Part shown: piece after piece, positions 12,001-18,000 of the stretch
Layout of the letters: every line of letters starts with the position of its first letter
How positions within the stretch are numbered: the first letter of the stretch is position 1
Assembly (NCBI GenBank): GCA_964399195.1
Contig: CAYNPY010000006.1
Coordinates: 9,621 to 73,620, forward strand
Length of the DNA stretch: 64,000 bases
Origin: an uncultured Fibrobacteraceae bacterium
Lineage (GTDB): Bacteria; Krumholzibacteriota; Krumholzibacteriia; LZORAL124-64-63
Direction of reading: 5' to 3'
Made by a program: the position numbers

Positions 12001-15000
12001 CGATCGCCGGGCGCGCGAGGTCGAAATCAACCAGGCTGCGCCTGGCAATGCATGTCGGGGTCAACGAGCGCGGCTCCTGCGGAAGACCCGGCGCGCCGCC
12101 GCGCGAGCGGCCGACCCCCAAAAAAATGGCTTCCAGACGCGGATTTTGGTAACACCTCGCGCTGGAATGCGCTAGATTCCCGCCGTTCGTGGAAGCCCTC
12201 CAGCTTCCGACAGCGCTGACTTAAGGAGGAACAAGCGCAATGGCTACCAAGAAGAAGACCAAGGCTGCGGCCAAGAAGGCCCCGGCGAAGAAGGCTCCGG
12301 CCGGCAACAAGCCGCCCACGAAGGGCGAGGTCTACCGCGAGATCGCGGCCAAGACCGGCATGACCCGCAAGGATGTCGTGGGCGTGTGCGACGCGCTGAC
12401 CGAGATCATGACGAAGTCGGTCAAGAAGCACGGCGCGTTCAACTACCTCGGCCTGATGAAGCTGACGCTGGTCAAGAAGCCGGCGATCGCCGGCGGCAAG
12501 CTCGTGAAGAACCCCTTCACCGGCGAGATGGTCAAGCAGAAGCCGCGTCCGGCTTCGCGCTCGGTCCGCGTGCGCCCGATGAAGAACCTGAAGGACATGC
12601 TGTAGGCTCCGGATTCCCCGGAGCCGGGCGGCCCGGATGGAACCTGCAGGCGAACGACCCCCGCGGCCCGGCCCGGGGGTCGTTCCGTCGGCGGCACGCC
12701 GCCGGGCGCTGGCGCGGCGGCAGCTGCGCGACGGGAGGCCACCATGATCTCGCGCCGCACGAAGTATGCGCTCCAGGCGCTCGGCCGGCTGGCGGCAAGC
12801 CCCGCCGGCGAGCCCGTGCTCATCGCCGACCTGGCGGCGCACGAGCGCATCCCCCGCAAGTACCTCGAGGCCATCCTGGTCACGCTGCGCAAGGGCGGCG
12901 TGCTGCAGAGCCGCGTCGGCCGCGGCGGCGGCTACCAGCTGGCGCTGCCCGCCGCCGAGATCACGCTGGAGCGCGTGGTGCGCCTGCTCGAGGGCGAGTT
13001 CGCGCCGCTGCCGTGCCTGACCGATGACGACCCGGTGCGCTGCGAGGAGTGCGACGACCTGGCCACCTGCGGCACGCGCCTGGTCATGGCCGACGTCAAG
13101 CTCGCGGTCACCTCGACGCTCGCGGCGTTGACGGTCACCGACCTGGTCGAGCGCTCGCGCGAAGCGGCGGCGCGGCGGCGCGGAGCGGTCGATTTTTCCA
13201 TCTAGCGGCTGGCCGTGTTTTGTCTATAATATCTGTAGGAATTTTTCCATATCTGCGGAGGTCTCTTAATGGCAAGGATTTACGACAACGCCTCCGCCTC
13301 CATCGGCAACACGCCGCTGGTGCGCTTGAACCGCGTCGTCCCCGGCGCCAAGGCCATCCTGCTGGGCAAGGTCGAGGGCCGCAACCCGGCCTTCTCGGTC
13401 AAGTGCCGCATCGGGGCGAACATGGTCTGGGACGCCGAGAAGCGCGGCGCCCTGAGGCCGGGCGTCGAGATCATCGAGCCGACCAGCGGCAACACCGGCA
13501 TCGCGCTGGCCTTCGTGGCCGCCTCGCGCGGCTACCCGATCACGCTGACGATGCCCGAGACGATGAGCCTCGAGCGCCGGCGCGTGCTGGCGGCGCTGGG
13601 GGCAACGCTGATCCTGACCCCGGGCGCCGACGGGATGAAGGGCGCCATCGCGAAGGCGGAACAGATCGCCGCCGGGGATCCGGGGCGCTGGTTCCTGCCG
13701 CAGCAGTTCCGCAACCCGGCCAACCCCGCGATCCACGAGCAGACGACCGGGCCGGAGATCTGGAACGACACCGACGGCGCCGTCGACGTGCTGGTTTCCG
13801 GCGTGGGCACCGGCGGCACCATCACCGGCGTTTCGCGCTACATCAAGCGCACGAAGGGCAAGGCCATCCTGTCGGTCGCGGTGGAGCCGGAGGAATCGCC
13901 CGTCATCACGCAGAAGCTCGCCGGCCAGACCCTGCAGCCCGGGCCGCACAAGATCCAGGGCATCGGCGCGGGATTCATCCCGGACACGCTGGACCTCGCC
14001 ATGGTCGACCGCGTGGAGCGCGTGTCCAGCGCCGAAGCGCTCGAGTCCGCCCGGCGCGTCGCGCGCGAGGAGGGCCTGCTGGTGGGCATCTCGTGCGGCG
14101 CGGCGGTGGCCGCGGCGGCGCGGCTGGCCGTCGACGAAGCCTTCGCCGGCAAGACGATCGTCGTCGTGCTGCCGGACCTGGCCGAGCGCTACCTGTCGAC
14201 GGCGCTGTTCGAGGGGATCTAGCCCGGCTCATGGCGGGCCATGCCCGCCCGGCATGGCCGCCATGCGGATCATTCATTTTCGGCTCGACCGGGCCGCCGA
14301 TATCATCCTTGCTGCAGGTTCGTCCCTGCCGCCACGCTACCGGCCGACCGTCGGCCCGGCGGGCGCAGCGCACAACAGCGACAAGGAGTTTCCCATGTTC
14401 AGGCGTCTGGCATTCGTCATGATCCTGGCCGGCATCGGCGCCGCGGCGGCGCTGGCCGCCCCGCTGCCCGGCAAGGTGCATTCCGCGTCCGCGGACACGC
14501 TGGTCGTGGTCGTCGACCTCGAGAACGTCGACTGGGTGAAGGTCGGCAAGCCGGTCCGCCTGATGGACGCGGACAAGGGCGCGCTCGTCGGCAAGAGCAC
14601 CGTCATCGCCATCGCCGACTCCACCGTCACCGTCGTGGCCCCCAAGGGCAAGGCGAAGAACCTGAAGCCCGGCAGTTCGGTGACCATGGAGAAGCCGAGA
14701 GCCGGCATGGCCGGCTGCTAGCGAGGCGGCCGCCGGGACCCCGCGTCGGCCACCCTCCTGGCGGCGCGGCGGTCCCGGACCTGCACGACAGGCTTTCTCC
14801 CCAACCGCGAGGGAAGACCCATGACCAGGAGATTCCAGTTGCCGGCGACGCTCGCGCTGCTGGCGGCGCTGGCGTTTGCTCAGGCAGCGGCAGCCCCGGC
14901 GCCCGCCGGCGTCGGCCGCGACCAGACACTGGCCGGGCAACCCAAGGCGAACTCCATCGCCGAGCTGGTGGCCCGCTACGATTCGCGTTCGTGCATCGAG

Positions 15001-18000
15001 TGCCACCAGGACGCCCACGACCAGTGGAACGAGTCCGCGCACGCGCGCTCGATCTTCGGCACCGGGCGCACCGCCCTGACCTTCCGCACGGCCATCAGCA
15101 ACGGACTGCTGGAGTGGGAAGCCTCGGGCGTCAAGGACGTCAAGGACCTGCGCGTCGAGCACCTGATGGGCTGCGCCAAGTGCCACCTCCCGCAGCTGGC
15201 CGACGCCACCGACAAGGTGGCCCGGGAGATCGTCGCCACGATCGACGCCTGGCGCGCGGCGATGGAGGAGGAGGACGAGGCGGCGATGGAGAAGCACGCC
15301 GCCACGCTGACCTCGCTCAACATCAACTGCCTGGTCTGCCACAACCGCAACGCCATCACGCACAAGTGGAGCGACGGCTATCCGCGCCGCGACACCGTGT
15401 ACGGCCTGAGCGGCGAGGGCGAGCACCCGGACGACAAGTTCACCGCGATGAAGCCCAGCCCGGTCATGTCCGAGTCGATCTTCTGCGGGCAGTGCCACGG
15501 CCTGGGGCCGAACTTCGACCAGGAGAACCCCACGCAGTGCGCCACCGGCTACGGCAGCTACCTGTTCGCCTACGTTCCGGAGGGCGGCACGCAGACCTGC
15601 GTCGAGTGCCACATGCGCGACTCGGGCCTGGGCCACAACATGCAGAGCTACCAGGCGAAGGTCATGTCGGACGCGGCCGTCGAGATGCACGTCGACGCCA
15701 AGGCCATCGTCTGGCGCGACGTGTCGACGATGCGCCCGAAGGCGACGGTGAAGGTGGAACTGACCAACCGCGCTGGGCACGGCATCCCGGACGGCTGACC
15801 CACCCCCAACCGACTGGTGCTGTCGGTTTCCGCGGTCGACAAGAACGGCAACGACGTCTTCAACGCCGAGCGCGTGTTCATGCCCGTCCCGCAGCGCCTC
15901 GGGCGCGGCGATCGCATGGGACGCGGCCCCTACGAGAAGAGCGGCCTGCTGCAGGACAGCAGCCTGCCGCCGCTGCGCACGGTCGCCACGAACTGGGACA
16001 TCTTCTTCCCCGTGGAGGAGAACGAGGACGGCGACGAGGTCGTCCGCACCTATCCCAGCGACACCCTCGACATCACCGTGAAGCTGTGGTACCTGCCTTA
16101 CGGCGTGCAGGACGACGATTTCGCGGTGGTCTGGCGCGAGGAGACGCACACGGTGAAGTTCGATCCGGAAGGCCTGTAGGCAGGTCTCCCGCGGCGCGAC
16201 TGTCGCCGGGGCGATTCTTCCGGGGACCGGCGCCGCGCAGGCGCCGGTCCTCGTTTCAGCGGCCGTCCAGGCGCAGCGTGTCCCAACCCCCGCCCTCGCG
16301 CTGGACCACGAAGACCGCGACCGCGCCGCGGTGGCGGGCCAGCAGCGCCGGCGCCCCGTCCGGACCGAGTACGAACAGCGCGGTCGACAGCGCGTCGGCC
16401 TCCAGGCCGGTCGGCGCGATGACGGTGACGCTGCCCGCGCGCGCCGACGGCAGGCCGGTGCGCGGGTCCAGGATGTGGCCGCGGCGGCGGCCCGCCACCT
16501 CGACGAAGCGCTCGTACTGCCCGGAGGTGGCCACGGCCGCATCCTTGACGGTCACCGCGCCGACGACGGCATCCGGGTCGTCCGGCGCCACGATCGCCAC
16601 CGGCCGCTCCCCGTGGCCGAACACCATGAGGTTGCCGCCCAGGTCGAGCACGCCCGCGGCGGCGCCGGCGGCGATCATGGCCCGGCGCGCGGCGTCCAGC
16701 GCGTGGCCCTTGGCGATGCCCCCCAGGTCCAGCGCCACCCCCGCGCGCGCGAAGGCGATCGTGCCGGCGACGGTGTCGACGCGGACGTGCCGCGCTCCGG
16801 TCACGGCGAGCAGTCCGGCCAGTTCGTCGGCGGCGGGCTCGCGCGCCGGCCCGCCGTGCAGGCCCCACGCGCGCAGCAGCGGCAGCACCGTCGGGTCGAA
16901 GGCGCCGCCGGAGGCCTCGGCCACCCGCAGGGCTGCCGCCACGACCTGCAGCAGGTCGGCCGGCGCGGCCACCGGCGCGGTCGCGGCCCCCGCGTTCACG
17001 CGCGCCAGGTCCGAGTCGTCGCGCCAGGTGCTCATCCGCGCGTCGACCTGCGCGAAGGCCTCCCACGCCGCGTCGAGAGCCGCCAGGGCGGTGGCCGAGT
17101 CGGGCGCCGCCGCGCGCACGACGGCGACGGTGCCCATCACGTAGCGGGATTCCTCGCGTTCGGCGGCCGTCGGCGCGGGCGGAGCCGCCGCGGCGCGCGC
17201 CGGCGCGGCCGGCGCGGCCAGCGCGGCCAGCGCGCAGATCAACAGCGCCGCCTGCCGGTTCCGCGCGCTCACGAGTGGTGGCGCTTCCGGTGGTGCCGCC
17301 GCGCGCGCACGGCGAGCGCGACGCCGGTGGCCAGCACCGCCACGAACAGCAGCGCGGCGACGTCGTACAACCGGGGCATGAGCGGCAGGCCCCAGTGCCC
17401 CGAATGCAGGCGCCGGACGGCCAGGCGCAGCCGGTCGCCGCGGGTGGGTTCGACGTGCCAGAGCGAGGTCCAGCGCGCGCCTTCACCCTCGCCGAGCGGG
17501 TCGCCGAGCCAGGCGGACTGAGCGGTGGCCACCACCGGCCGGCCGTCGGCGGTCACGGTCAGGGCGAGCGGCGGGTCGTCGGGTCCGGCGCCCGGCGGCA
17601 GGTCGCGCCGCTCCCAGACTTCGCCGCCGTCCGCGCTGGCCAGCAGCTCGGTGGCGCCCAGCAGCCACACGGTGCCGAAAGGCGGCGGCGCGAACGCCGC
17701 GGCCACCGGCGCGTCGGGCGCCGCGGACAGGGGCAGCTCGTTCCAGCTGGCGCCGCCGTCGCGCGATTCCTCGAGCAGGGCCGGCGACGCGCGCAGCAGC
17801 CGCCCGGCAACGGACGGGTCCGCCGCCACGACGCGCGGCGGCAGTGCGCCCCGCCCCAGCCAGCCCGGGTGCTGCAGCGCCAGCCCGGTGGCGACCATCA
17901 GCAGCGCGCCGGCCGCCAGGAACAGGCCCAGCTTCTCGTGCGCGCCGCGCAGCCGCCGCTTGTGCCGGCTGCTCACGGCGATCCTCCGTAGCGGGCCTCG

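What the first reader, a model, noticed from the sequence alone, without database searches (positions are those of the whole stretch)
14821..16179. Multiheme cytochrome c with an in-frame UGA and a SECIS-like hairpin: candidate selenocysteine-containing cytochrome
**What the sequence shows.** The pentaheme cytochrome ORF (14821-15798) stops at TGA 15796-15798. The next ORF (15817-16179) is in exactly the same frame: 15817-14821=996, which is 332x3. Only six sense codons separate them. The downstream ORF starts at a GTG with no Shine-Dalgarno sequence; the upstream sequence is cccccaaccgact. Read-through gives one continuous 452-aa protein, ...ELTNRAGHGIPDG-U-PTPNRLVLSVSAVDKNGNDVF.... The heme-free C-terminal part then looks like the beta-rich domain that normally ends such cytochromes rather than a separate protein.

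**The hairpin.** Ten nt after the UGA there is a perfect 7-bp stem, AACCGAC/GUCGGUU, with a 7-nt loop UGGUGCU (15808-15828). The apical loop starts 16 nt after the UGA and carries GGU. As I recall them, this geometry and loop content match bacterial SECIS elements (fdhF-type, bSECISearch model).

**Why it matters.** I am not aware of a described family of Sec-containing multiheme cytochromes, so this could be a new selenoprotein class. It sits 14 kb from an ExtH/ExtI-type putative selenite-handling locus.
Basis: partly seen in the sequence, partly recalled or inferred. Interest (0 to 1): 0.85.

Follow-up and report, generated by a model that had tools for sequence, protein, structure and literature searches.

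The report
Known selenocysteine cytochrome MccSep (ExtKL)
The in-frame UGA and hairpin are real and almost certainly encode selenocysteine, but the gene is an ordinary orthologue of MccSep/ExtKL, a five-heme selenoprotein polysulfide reductase already predicted in 2007, curated by NCBI, and solved and characterised in Geobacter, so it is not a new selenoprotein class.

Summary
The ORF 14821-15798 has five CxxCH motifs and ends at TGA 15796-15798. The frame continues to TAG 16177-16179, giving 452 aa. A perfect 7-bp hairpin lies at 15808-15828.

The fused protein scores 568.6 bits (cutoff 250) against NCBIfam NF040886, 'multiheme c-type cytochrome (seleno)protein ExtKL'. It aligns end to end with the crystal structures of Geobacter sulfurreducens MccSep (PDB 9wt8 and others, E 3e-177). 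The residues R83, H122, C239, U325 and K372 of MccSep are all conserved.

All 80 homologous loci carry TGA at the same codon. The five codons after it (PTPNR) are invariant. Most homologues have no start codon for 20-28 codons. Synonymous sites are frozen exactly over the hairpin. A covariance model built from other phyla hits the window only there (E 2.4e-12).

The Sec reading and the SECIS reading are therefore supported. The novelty claim is not: Fujita 2007, Jahan 2018 and Mihara 2026 already describe the family.

No selA, selB, selC or selD lies in the window, so Sec decoding by this organism remains inferred. The organism is probably a Krumholzibacteriia bacterium.

Modest residual interest: the phylum, the ext gene set split into three blocks, and the split annotation in every public metagenome gene call inspected.

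The parts
14821..16179 (+). mccSep / extKL: single 452-aa CDS read through UGA-Sec (pentaheme domain plus C-terminal Ig-like domain)
   Evidence: Searches show the frame. NF040886, 568.6 bits against cutoff 250, in one stretch covering profile positions 10-422 of 423; the two halves map to profile positions 10-314 and 316-422. PDB MccSep, E 3e-177, query 13-451 against chain 9-449.
14821..14883 (+). Probable Sec-type signal peptide (MTRRFQLPATLALLAALAFAQA)
   Evidence: Inference from reading the sequence; no predictor was run. Geobacter MccSep is periplasmic, and 97% of homologues are predicted to carry periplasmic localisation signals (PMC13510729).
14992..15612 (+). Span holding the five CxxCH heme-binding motifs (14992-15006, 15172-15186, 15328-15342, 15484-15498, 15598-15612)
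   Evidence: One search gives the motif positions. All are invariant in alignment A1.
15538..15540 (+). Cys240 codon, equivalent to C239 of Geobacter MccSep (distal ligand of catalytic heme 2)
   Evidence: alignment and numbering. Invariant in A1. Role taken from PMC13510729.
15796..15798 (+). UGA selenocysteine codon (U326, equivalent to U325 of Geobacter MccSep)
   Evidence: TGA at the aligned codon in 81 of 81 sequences. It aligns to residue 325 of PDB chain 9wt9_A, the U325A mutant.
15808..15828 (+). SECIS-type hairpin: 7-bp stem AACCGAC/GUCGGUU with loop UGGUGCU. The conserved core is the inner 6 bp (15809-15827).
   Evidence: Core paired in about 53 of 65 distinct homologues. Synonymous sites frozen over it. 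Covariance model R1 from other phyla hits 15796-15837 at 48.1 bits, E 2.4e-12; the next hit scores 11.7 bits.
14254..14721 (+). ExtJ-like small protein directly upstream (true start may be later; called as 108 aa in some metagenome contigs)
   Evidence: NF040942 ExtJ, 32.5 bits, below the cutoff of 52.5; conserved upstream neighbour.
28484..29503 (-). LysR regulator of the 'multiheme cytochrome-associated' type, divergent from extH
   Evidence: NF041036, 285.5 bits against cutoff 210.
29664..30923 (+). ExtH rhodanese-like protein
   Evidence: NF040901, 301.2 bits against cutoff 200.
30991..32193 (+). ExtI outer-membrane porin
   Evidence: NF040900, 580.7 bits against cutoff 150.
32279..33124 (-). 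ExtS tetraheme c-type cytochrome lipoprotein
   Evidence: NF040971, 220.4 bits against cutoff 100. Four CxxCH motifs.
33100..33546 (-). ExtQ membrane protein
   Evidence: NF040970, 162.9 bits against cutoff 150.
33543..34163 (-). ExtP-like cytochrome b
   Evidence: NF040969, 225.1 bits, below the cutoff of 290. It also matches cytochrome b6.
34160..34567 (-). Rieske Fe-S protein in the ExtO position (start approximate)
   Evidence: motif CTHLGC...CPCHGS. Rieske and PetC models, E 4e-15, all below their cutoffs.
34522..35763 (-). ExtN multiheme cytochrome
   Evidence: NF040967, 469.3 bits against cutoff 200. NF040968 matches equally at 473.9 bits.
35669..37627 (-). ExtM multiheme cytochrome (start approximate)
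   Evidence: NF040943, 899.5 bits against cutoff 800.

Best explanation
Positions 14821-16179 hold one gene. It is an orthologue of mccSep (extKL, GSU2937-2936 of Geobacter sulfurreducens).

How it is made: the mRNA is translated from ATG 14821. At UGA 15796-15798 the hairpin 15808-15828 acts as a bacterial SECIS. It recruits SelB with Sec-tRNA(Sec), so selenocysteine is inserted as residue 326. [quoted passage not shown]

What it does: the secreted 452-aa protein carries five c-type hemes. By analogy with the Geobacter structure, Sec326 sits in a D-G-U-P loop from the C-terminal domain, next to heme 2. Heme 2 is ligated by His122 and Cys240. The selenolate attacks polysulfide (and, less efficiently, selenite), and electrons arrive through the heme chain.

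Where the electrons come from: the rest of the ext gene set is in the window. It includes ExtM, ExtN and ExtS cytochromes, a Rieske protein with ExtP and ExtQ (a bc-like module), the ExtH rhodanese and the ExtI porin. Together they probably carry electrons from the quinol pool and bring substrate across the outer membrane.

Shown here: family membership, conservation of the UGA, translation through the junction, and RNA-level constraint on the hairpin.

Inferred: actual Sec insertion in this organism, heme ligation, enzymatic activity, and the electron path.
For: - Family: NF040886 scores 568.6 bits against cutoff 250, in one stretch across the junction. The two halves map to contiguous profile positions 10-314 and 316-422.
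- Structure: PDB MccSep matches at E 3e-177 over chain residues 9-449, with 59% identity.
- Catalytic residues R83, H122, C240 (=C239), U326 (=U325) and K373 (=K372) are conserved. Their roles come from PMC13510729.
- The window encodes VELTNRAGHGIPDG-UGA-PTPNR. The mass-spectrometry-verified Geobacter peptide is VEMTNHAGHSIPDGUPTPNR.
- TGA is at the aligned codon in 81 of 81 sequences, from MAGs labelled Krumholzibacteriia, Acidobacteriota/Vicinamibacteria, Nitrospirota, Myxococcales and several Desulfobacterota-type lineages.
- PTPNR is invariant in 77 of 77 homologues. The first possible start codon lies at +20 or +28 in 60 of 77.
- The C-terminal domain is under the same purifying selection as the N-terminal one. 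The synonymous fraction of differences is 0.72 in both against L001.
- Synonymous-site entropy is lowest in the whole gene at +6, +8 and +9. It averages 0.77 bits near the UGA and 1.55 bits elsewhere (Mann-Whitney p = 3e-5).
- In a gene with GC3 of 0.95, the stem uses CGA and GTT, exactly where A-U pairs are needed.
- Covariance model R1 gives a single hit at E 2.4e-12.
- TGA is the ordinary stop of 35 of 51 other gene-like ORFs.
- The full ext set is in the window.
Against: - No selA, selB, selD or tRNA-Sec was found among the roughly 50 gene-like ORFs scanned, and no tRNA of any kind is in the window. Sec decoding by this organism is therefore not shown.
- Hairpin folding energy cannot be told apart from shuffled sequence.
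- True compensatory base changes in the stem are few, because it overlaps a conserved peptide. Only one pair shows changes on both sides, and the seventh pair is lineage-specific.
- Model R1 cannot separate RNA conservation from coding conservation.
- Rfam has no matching family.
- ExtJ and ExtP score below their curated cutoffs.
- Activity and physiological substrate are extrapolated from a 59%-identical enzyme in a different phylum.
Confidence: 0.88

Rival explanations
1. Two separate genes: a pentaheme cytochrome that really ends at TGA 15796, and an independently translated 120-aa protein that starts at GTG 15817. This is how the metagenome gene calls annotate it.
For: The public gene calls inspected split it into 325 aa and 120 aa. 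GTG 15817 exists in the window. The Sec machinery was not seen.
Against: - There is no SD before GTG 15817.
- Codon +7 is GTT or GTC, not a start codon, in most homologues. The first possible start is at +20 or +28 in 60 of 77.
- The five codons between the TGA and that point are invariant as PTPNR in 77 of 77.
- The same frame is kept in 81 of 81 sequences.
- The Geobacter product is a single 49-kDa polypeptide with Sec at this site, by Western blot, mass spectrometry and crystallography (PMC13510729).
Confidence: 0.03
2. The UGA is read through with a standard amino acid (for example Trp or Cys by near-cognate decoding), or the organism has lost Sec decoding and the gene is only weakly expressed. 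The full-length protein would exist but would not be a selenoprotein.
For: No Sec machinery is in the window. No paper in the held library links Krumholzibacteriota to selenocysteine use.
Against: - The SECIS-type hairpin is kept by codon choices that go against the gene's strong GC3 bias.
- Lineages that abandon Sec normally fix TGC or TGT, and none of the 81 sequences has done so.
- In Geobacter the U325C and U325A variants lose nearly all activity (PMC13510729).
- The 64-kb window is only part of a genome, so absence of the machinery from it carries little weight.
Confidence: 0.05
3. Pseudogene or assembly error: a nonsense mutation or a base-call error produced the TGA.
For: None specific. 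One database hit (P0119) is a frameshifted or chimeric assembly of a homologue.
Against: - The identical 325-aa product is indexed in 31 blocks of independent metagenome assemblies.
- TGA is conserved in 81 of 81 sequences across phyla.
- The downstream domain is under purifying selection.
Confidence: 0.01
4. Same protein, different physiological role. In this organism it would serve mainly in selenite/tellurite reduction or detoxification, as the 'selenite/tellurite reduction operon' naming suggests, rather than in sulfur respiration.
For: - The NCBIfam names for the ext genes.
- Loss of ExtI impairs selenite and tellurite reduction in Geobacter (PMC5877670).
- MccSep reduces selenite in vitro (PMC13510729).
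- The neighbourhood is rich in metalloid and thiol handling genes: ArsR, an ArsP-type permease, ACR3, thioredoxins, a DsbD-like protein and CysK.
Against: - Polysulfide is the preferred substrate in Geobacter: K0.5 is fivefold lower and Vmax/K0.5 sevenfold higher.
- Nothing in the window discriminates between the two roles.
Confidence: 0.25

Closest known systems
MccSep / ExtKL of Geobacter sulfurreducens PCA (GSU2937-2936; PDB 9wt8, 9wt9, 9wta, 9wtb, 9wtc; NCBIfam NF040886)
   Same: - 59% identity over the full length.
- Five CxxCH motifs.
- Sec in the same D-G-U-P-T-P-N-R context.
- Conserved R83, H122, C239, U325 and K372 equivalents.
- A C-terminal Ig-like domain after the UGA.
- A hairpin with the same core ACCGAC / GUCGGU in the same position.
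- Encoded together with ExtH, I, J, M, N, O, P, Q and S homologues.
   Different: - The host is probably Krumholzibacteriia (72% G+C), not Desulfobacterota.
- The ext genes are split into three blocks instead of one extHIJKLMNOPQS cluster: extJ-like plus extKL at 14.3-16.2 kb, extHI at 29.7-32.2 kb, and extMNOPQS on the minus strand at 32.3-37.6 kb.
- The hairpin has a seventh A-U pair and GUG in the loop.
- It cannot form the alternative pairing with the ACCGAC that follows UG in many Desulfuromonadales genes.
Escherichia coli fdhF-type bacterial SECIS (bSECISearch consensus)
   Same: A stem-loop lies inside the coding region just 3' of the UGA. The spacer is 9-10 nt, and the apical loop starts 16 nt after the UGA and contains GGU. 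This geometry matches what I recall of the bacterial consensus (own knowledge, not tested with that software).
   Different: There is no sequence similarity to the fdhF element. No bulged U is evident. No Rfam family recognises it. SelB binding is untested.
Other catalytic multiheme cytochromes with a His/Cys-ligated heme (TsdA thiosulfate dehydrogenase, DsrJ), as discussed in PMC13510729
   Same: A c-type heme with a Cys distal ligand is used for sulfur chemistry.
   Different: [quoted passage not shown] No sequence homology to these proteins was detected here beyond the heme motifs.

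Membership tests
MccSep / ExtKL (NCBIfam NF040886) | Whole-protein score above the curated equivalog cutoff, in one alignment spanning the UGA | tested here: met
   568.6 bits against 250, profile positions 10-422 of 423; the halves map to 10-314 and 316-422.
MccSep / ExtKL (NCBIfam NF040886) | Five conserved CxxCH heme c-binding motifs | tested here: met
   One search gives the positions: 58, 118, 170, 222 and 260. All are invariant in A1.
MccSep / ExtKL (NCBIfam NF040886) | Sec (UGA) or Cys at the conserved site in the D-G-U-P loop | tested here: met
   TGA 15796-15798 aligns to residue 325 of the PDB chain. The codon is TGA in 81 of 81 sequences.
MccSep / ExtKL (NCBIfam NF040886) | Strictly conserved His/Cys pair that ligates catalytic heme 2 (H122/C239), plus R83 and K372 | tested here: met
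   H122, C240, R83 and K373 are present. Only the residues were tested, not the ligation itself.
MccSep / ExtKL (NCBIfam NF040886) | C-terminal Ig-like domain contiguous with the heme domain | tested here: met
   The alignment reaches chain residue 449 of 450. A downstream ORF of 110-135 codons is present in the 77 homologues analysed.
MccSep / ExtKL (NCBIfam NF040886) | SECIS-like stem-loop within about 30 nt after the UGA | tested here: met
MccSep / ExtKL (NCBIfam NF040886) | One selenium per subunit; polysulfide reductase activity; tetramer | not testable with these tools
   Known only for the Geobacter enzyme (PMC13510729).
MccSep / ExtKL (NCBIfam NF040886) | Periplasmic targeting signal | not tested
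   A hydrophobic N-terminus ending in AQA is visible in the translation. No predictor was run.
Bacterial SECIS element | Stem-loop shortly 3' of the UGA with an apical loop 16-37 nt downstream that carries G/GU (recalled bSECISearch criteria) | tested here: met
   Geometry read. It is uncommon by chance: 3 of 1,227 TGA triplets.
Bacterial SECIS element | Structure supported by evolution (conservation beyond coding needs, or covariation) | tested here: met
   Synonymous-site suppression. The 6-bp core is paired in about 80% of cells, against 11-40% for slid controls. Compensatory changes are few, so the support is conservation rather than covariation.
Bacterial SECIS element | Folding energy better than shuffled sequence | tested here: not met
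   z = -0.87 and +0.49. This test has little power for a 21-nt hairpin in 72% G+C sequence.
Bacterial SECIS element | Binding of SelB; dependence of read-through on the hairpin | not testable with these tools
   Needs an experiment.
Sec-decoding organism | selA, selB, selD and tRNA-Sec (selC) in the genome | tested here: inconclusive
   None was found in the 64-kb window.
ext (extHIJKLMNOPQS) gene set | Presence of ExtH, I, J, KL, M, N, O, P, Q and S | tested here: met
   Above cutoff: ExtH, ExtI, ExtKL, ExtM, ExtN, ExtQ and ExtS. Below cutoff: ExtJ (32.5 against 52.5) and ExtP (225.1 against 290). A Rieske protein occupies the ExtO position. The genes are not contiguous as they are in Geobacter.

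The most novel reading that the evidence does not exclude
The locus would extend two traits to Candidatus Krumholzibacteriota: selenocysteine decoding, and MccSep-dependent polysulfide or elemental-sulfur respiration (or selenite reduction). I found no paper in the held library that links this phylum to selenocysteine use, and the MccSep paper's main text does not name the phylum. Here the ext pathway is rearranged into three separate transcription units. This arrangement might reflect horizontal acquisition from Desulfobacterota, since the SECIS core is nearly identical at the nucleotide level across these phyla.
Probability: 0.5. Interest if true: 0.3.

Novelty: already known. Interest (0 to 1): 0.15.

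Why it matters
For discovery it matters little. The selenoprotein family, its SECIS, its structure and its function are published and curated.

Its practical value is in annotation. Every public metagenome gene call inspected for this exact locus, and almost all of the top 120 database homologues, split the gene into a truncated cytochrome and an orphan 120-aa ORF. Metabolic reconstructions of these uncultured bacteria would therefore miss a probable polysulfide/sulfur reductase.

It also adds a high-G+C, probably Krumholzibacteriia, lineage to the hosts of MccSep. And it shows that the ext genes need not form one cluster.

Tried and rejected
- **Folding-energy z-scores** of the hairpin region were uninformative. 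The sequence is too short and too G+C-rich.
- **Rfam** gave nothing at gathering thresholds over the whole window. A permissive scan of 15700-15950 gave only two chance-level matches (eeev_FSE and radC, E about 5).
- **Compensatory covariation**: only one pair has changes on both sides, so I rely on synonymous-site suppression instead.
- **Other in-frame TGA candidates** in the window:
  - 38106 and 41706 are adjacent genes that share a frame (HypA starts at MHEM, HypC at MCLAIPG).
  - 9979 also looks like two adjacent genes; I did not check it further.
  - 21587 is followed by a separate gene (MEILILGTGCPKC...) with its own ATG and a GGGAGAA SD. In near-identical contigs that gene carries Pfam Thioredoxin_3.
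- **Sec machinery:** about 50 ORFs were scanned against NCBIfam and ARAGORN was run. Nothing was found.
- **Cys-type homologues:** none appeared among the top 80 loci. P0119, the one near-full-length database hit, is a frameshifted or chimeric assembly.
- **Supplementary tables** of PMC13510729, wanted to see whether Krumholzibacteriota genomes are already listed, are not held.
- **Lower helix:** the pairing of UGACC with GGUCG in the 50-nt fold is rejected as a conserved feature. Columns 34-42 are not conserved among homologues.

Full report
**1. The observation.** Every sequence detail in the finding checks out.
- ATG 14821 is preceded by an SD-like GAGGGAAG. It opens an ORF with five CxxCH motifs that stops at TGA 15796-15798.
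- The frame continues through P-T-P-N-R-L to GTG 15817 and on to TAG 16177-16179. That gives 452 residues, with the UGA as codon 326.
- There is no Shine-Dalgarno sequence before GTG 15817.
- The hairpin AACCGAC / UGGUGCU / GUCGGUU occupies 15808-15828. It starts 9 nt after the UGA, and its loop starts 16 nt after it.

**2. What it is.** The fused protein is a member of a curated, solved selenoprotein family.
- With U written as C, it scores 568.6 bits (curated cutoff 250, E 6.6e-171) against NCBIfam NF040886, 'multiheme c-type cytochrome (seleno)protein ExtKL'. The match is one stretch covering profile positions 10-422 of 423.
- Scanned separately, the two halves map to contiguous parts of the same profile, 10-314 and 316-422.
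- In the Protein Data Bank the protein matches 'Multiheme cytochrome c selenoprotein (MccSep)' of Geobacter sulfurreducens (9wt8, 9wt9, 9wta, 9wtb, 9wtc). The E-value is 3e-177 over chain residues 9-449 of 450, and identity is 59%.

**3. What is already published.**
- Mihara et al. (Sci Adv 2026, PMC13510729; bioRxiv 2025) studied GSU2937-2936, also called extKL. They found:
  - The product is a single periplasmic polypeptide of about 49 kDa with five hemes and 0.96 selenium atoms per subunit.
  - Sec was verified by mass spectrometry in the peptide VEMTNHAGHSIPDGUPTPNR.
  - Crystal structures show a tetramer. U325 comes from a C-terminal Ig-like domain and sits next to heme 2, which is ligated by H122 and C239.
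  - The enzyme reduces polysulfide and, less efficiently, selenite. [quoted passage not shown]
  - They collected 637 homologues, 394 of them by UGA read-through, and predicted SECIS-like hairpins in each clade.
- The selenoprotein was first predicted in silico in 2007 (Fujita et al., ref 16 of that paper).
- It was called a putative selenoprotein in 2018 (PMC5877670).
- It is listed in a 2026 review of prokaryotic selenoproteins (PMC13188914).

The window encodes VELTNRAGHGIPDG-UGA-PTPNR. It conserves R83, H122, C240 (=C239), U326 (=U325) and K373 (=K372).

**4. Independent tests of read-through.** A scan of one genome per species returned 80 loci that encode relatives.
- In all 80, and in the window, the aligned codon is TGA. 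None has TGC or TGT.
- The 77 sequences analysed continue in frame for 110-135 more codons.
- The five codons after the TGA are invariant as PTPNR in 77 of 77. Yet the first ATG, GTG or TTG lies at codon +20 or +28 in 60 of 77, so an independent downstream gene is not viable.
- The C-terminal domain evolves under the same constraint as the heme domain. Against the closest relative the synonymous fraction of differences is 0.72 in both.
- TGA is the ordinary stop codon of 35 of 51 other gene-like ORFs in the window. The genome is therefore not recoded, and a local signal is required.

**5. The hairpin as a SECIS.**
- By energy alone it is unremarkable (z = -0.87).
- A perfect 7-bp hairpin in the right position follows 1.6% of TGA triplets in this window. 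With GGU in the loop the figure is 0.24%, or 3 of 1,227.
- The comparative signal is much stronger. Among 98 conserved degenerate codon columns of the gene, the three with the lowest third-position entropy are +6 (CTG, 73 of 73), +8 (CTG, 74 of 74) and +9 (TCG, 65 of 65). Codon +5 is CGA in 62 of 77.
- Mean entropy is 0.77 bits in codons +1 to +10 and 1.55 bits elsewhere (Mann-Whitney p = 3e-5). The sequences are related, so that p-value is indicative only.
- In the window the gene has GC3 of 0.95. The stem nevertheless uses CGA and GTT, exactly where A-U pairs are needed.
- The 6-bp core ACCGAC/GUCGGU is paired in about 53 of 65 distinct sequences. That is 79.8% of cells, against 11-40% for slid controls.
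- A minority of sequences, mostly Nitrospirota-labelled and encoding LVL[E/Y/D]V, replace this stem with a shorter shifted one. Its loop is still centred on CUGGU.
- I built a covariance model from 43 homologues, excluding the window and its five closest relatives. It hits the window exactly once, at 15796-15837 (48.1 bits, E 2.4e-12). The next hit scores 11.7 bits. The model cannot separate RNA conservation from coding conservation, so it shows that the window carries the family's element, not that the element binds SelB.
- Rfam has no family for it.

**6. Context.** All components of the Geobacter extHIJKLMNOPQS set are in the window, in three blocks.
- Block 1: ExtJ-like (14254-14721, below cutoff) and ExtKL.
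- Block 2: ExtH (29664-30923) and ExtI (30991-32193), preceded by a divergent 'multiheme cytochrome-associated' LysR regulator.
- Block 3, on the minus strand and convergent with extHI: ExtM, ExtN, a Rieske protein, ExtP-like, ExtQ and ExtS (37627 down to 32279).

This fits an electron path from quinol through the Rieske/cytochrome b module and the multiheme cytochromes to periplasmic MccSep. ExtI would act as the outer-membrane channel and ExtH as a sulfur or selenium carrier. That path is inference.

**7. What could not be shown.**
- No selA, selB, selD or tRNA-Sec is in the window. The rest of the genome is unavailable.
- The closest relative (94% amino-acid, about 90% nucleotide identity) is a Candidatus Krumholzibacteriia MAG.
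- I found no paper that links this phylum to selenocysteine.
- The MccSep paper's main text names mainly Desulfobacterota and Nitrospirota. Its supplementary genome lists are not held.

**8. Verdict.** Its novelty claim is wrong. This is an orthologue of a known, structurally and biochemically characterised selenoenzyme. Three points of minor interest remain: the probable host phylum, the split ext arrangement, and the split annotation in public metagenome gene calls.

Noticed in passing
window 14254-16179, 28484-32193 and 32279-37627: The complete ext gene set (H, I, J-like, KL, M, N, Rieske, P-like, Q, S) is present but split into three transcription units. extJ-KL lies 13.5 kb from extHI, and extMNOPQS is convergent with extHI. 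In Geobacter the set is one contiguous cluster.
   Followed up: partly
window 34522-35763 (-) and 34160-34567 (-): NCBIfam NF040968 ('FeS_ExtO', 473.9 bits) and NF040967 ('cytc_ExtN', 469.3 bits) both match the same multiheme ORF over the same residues. The actual Rieske ORF in the ExtO position matches neither, only generic Rieske models. The two curated models seem to describe one protein, which suggests a naming problem in the library.
   Followed up: partly
L006, L009, L017-L020, L022-L066 and others, first 32 nt from the TGA: In most Desulfuromonadales-type homologues ACCGAC occurs twice: right after UG, and again as the 5' arm of the stem. GUCGGU could therefore pair with either copy. 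The computed MFE prefers the outer pairing, which includes the UGA, plus an inner AACC/GGUU helix. The window (CCCAC, GUG) cannot form this alternative. It might be a switch, or just a by-product of the P-T-P-N-R codons.
   Followed up: partly
L058, L067, L068, L070-L075, L078-L080 (Nitrospirota and other lineages): A second hairpin class: the peptide changes from LVLSV to LVL[E/Y/D]V, and the stem is replaced by a shorter, shifted helix (for example CAGG/CCUG). The apical loop stays centred on the Leu-Val CUGGU.
   Followed up: partly
window 14821-16179; loci L081-L084; proteins P0001-P0120: The public gene calls inspected split this gene into a 325-aa and a 120-aa ORF. The identical 325-aa product is indexed in 31 blocks of metagenome assemblies (JGI 3300007351 and several SRA runs). 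P0119 (420 aa) is a frameshifted or chimeric assembly.
   Followed up: yes
window 16256-19860 (-): A minus-strand module sits next to extKL: ApbE FMN transferase, a PepSY_TM-like protein, an FMN_bind protein and a porin-like protein. It is conserved in the near-identical contigs L082-L084. Its function and any link to MccSep are unknown.
   Followed up: no
window 19972-23562 and 25853-27972: A cluster for metalloid and thiol handling: ArsR-type regulators, an ArsP_1/SO_0444-like permease, a small Thioredoxin_3 protein (GCPKC), a thioredoxin, a DsbD-like membrane protein, an ArsF-like protein and ACR3. The permease ends at TGA 21587 and the Thioredoxin_3 gene follows in the same frame. That gene has its own ATG and a GGGAGAA SD, so I read this as coincidence, not Sec. 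The 2026 review does list Sec-containing forms of both families elsewhere.
   Followed up: partly
window 38115-44304 (+) and 58101-62587 (-): Hydrogenase maturation genes: HypA was confirmed by a model, and HypC was recognised by its MCLAIPG start. There is also a four-subunit-like group 3 [NiFe] hydrogenase resembling sulfhydrogenase (beta, gamma and alpha hits, plus a maturation protease). The first ~213 residues of ORF 58558-60492 lie outside the alpha-subunit match, so it may hold a fused or mis-started delta subunit. A sulfhydrogenase-like enzyme next to a polysulfide reductase pathway is suggestive.
   Followed up: no
window 757-2379 (-): A 540-aa UshA/SoxB-like metallophosphoesterase. 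It hits the 'UshA-like (seleno)protein' model weakly (85 bits against cutoff 275) and has no in-frame TGA. It is probably an ordinary 5'-nucleotidase or SoxB relative.
   Followed up: no
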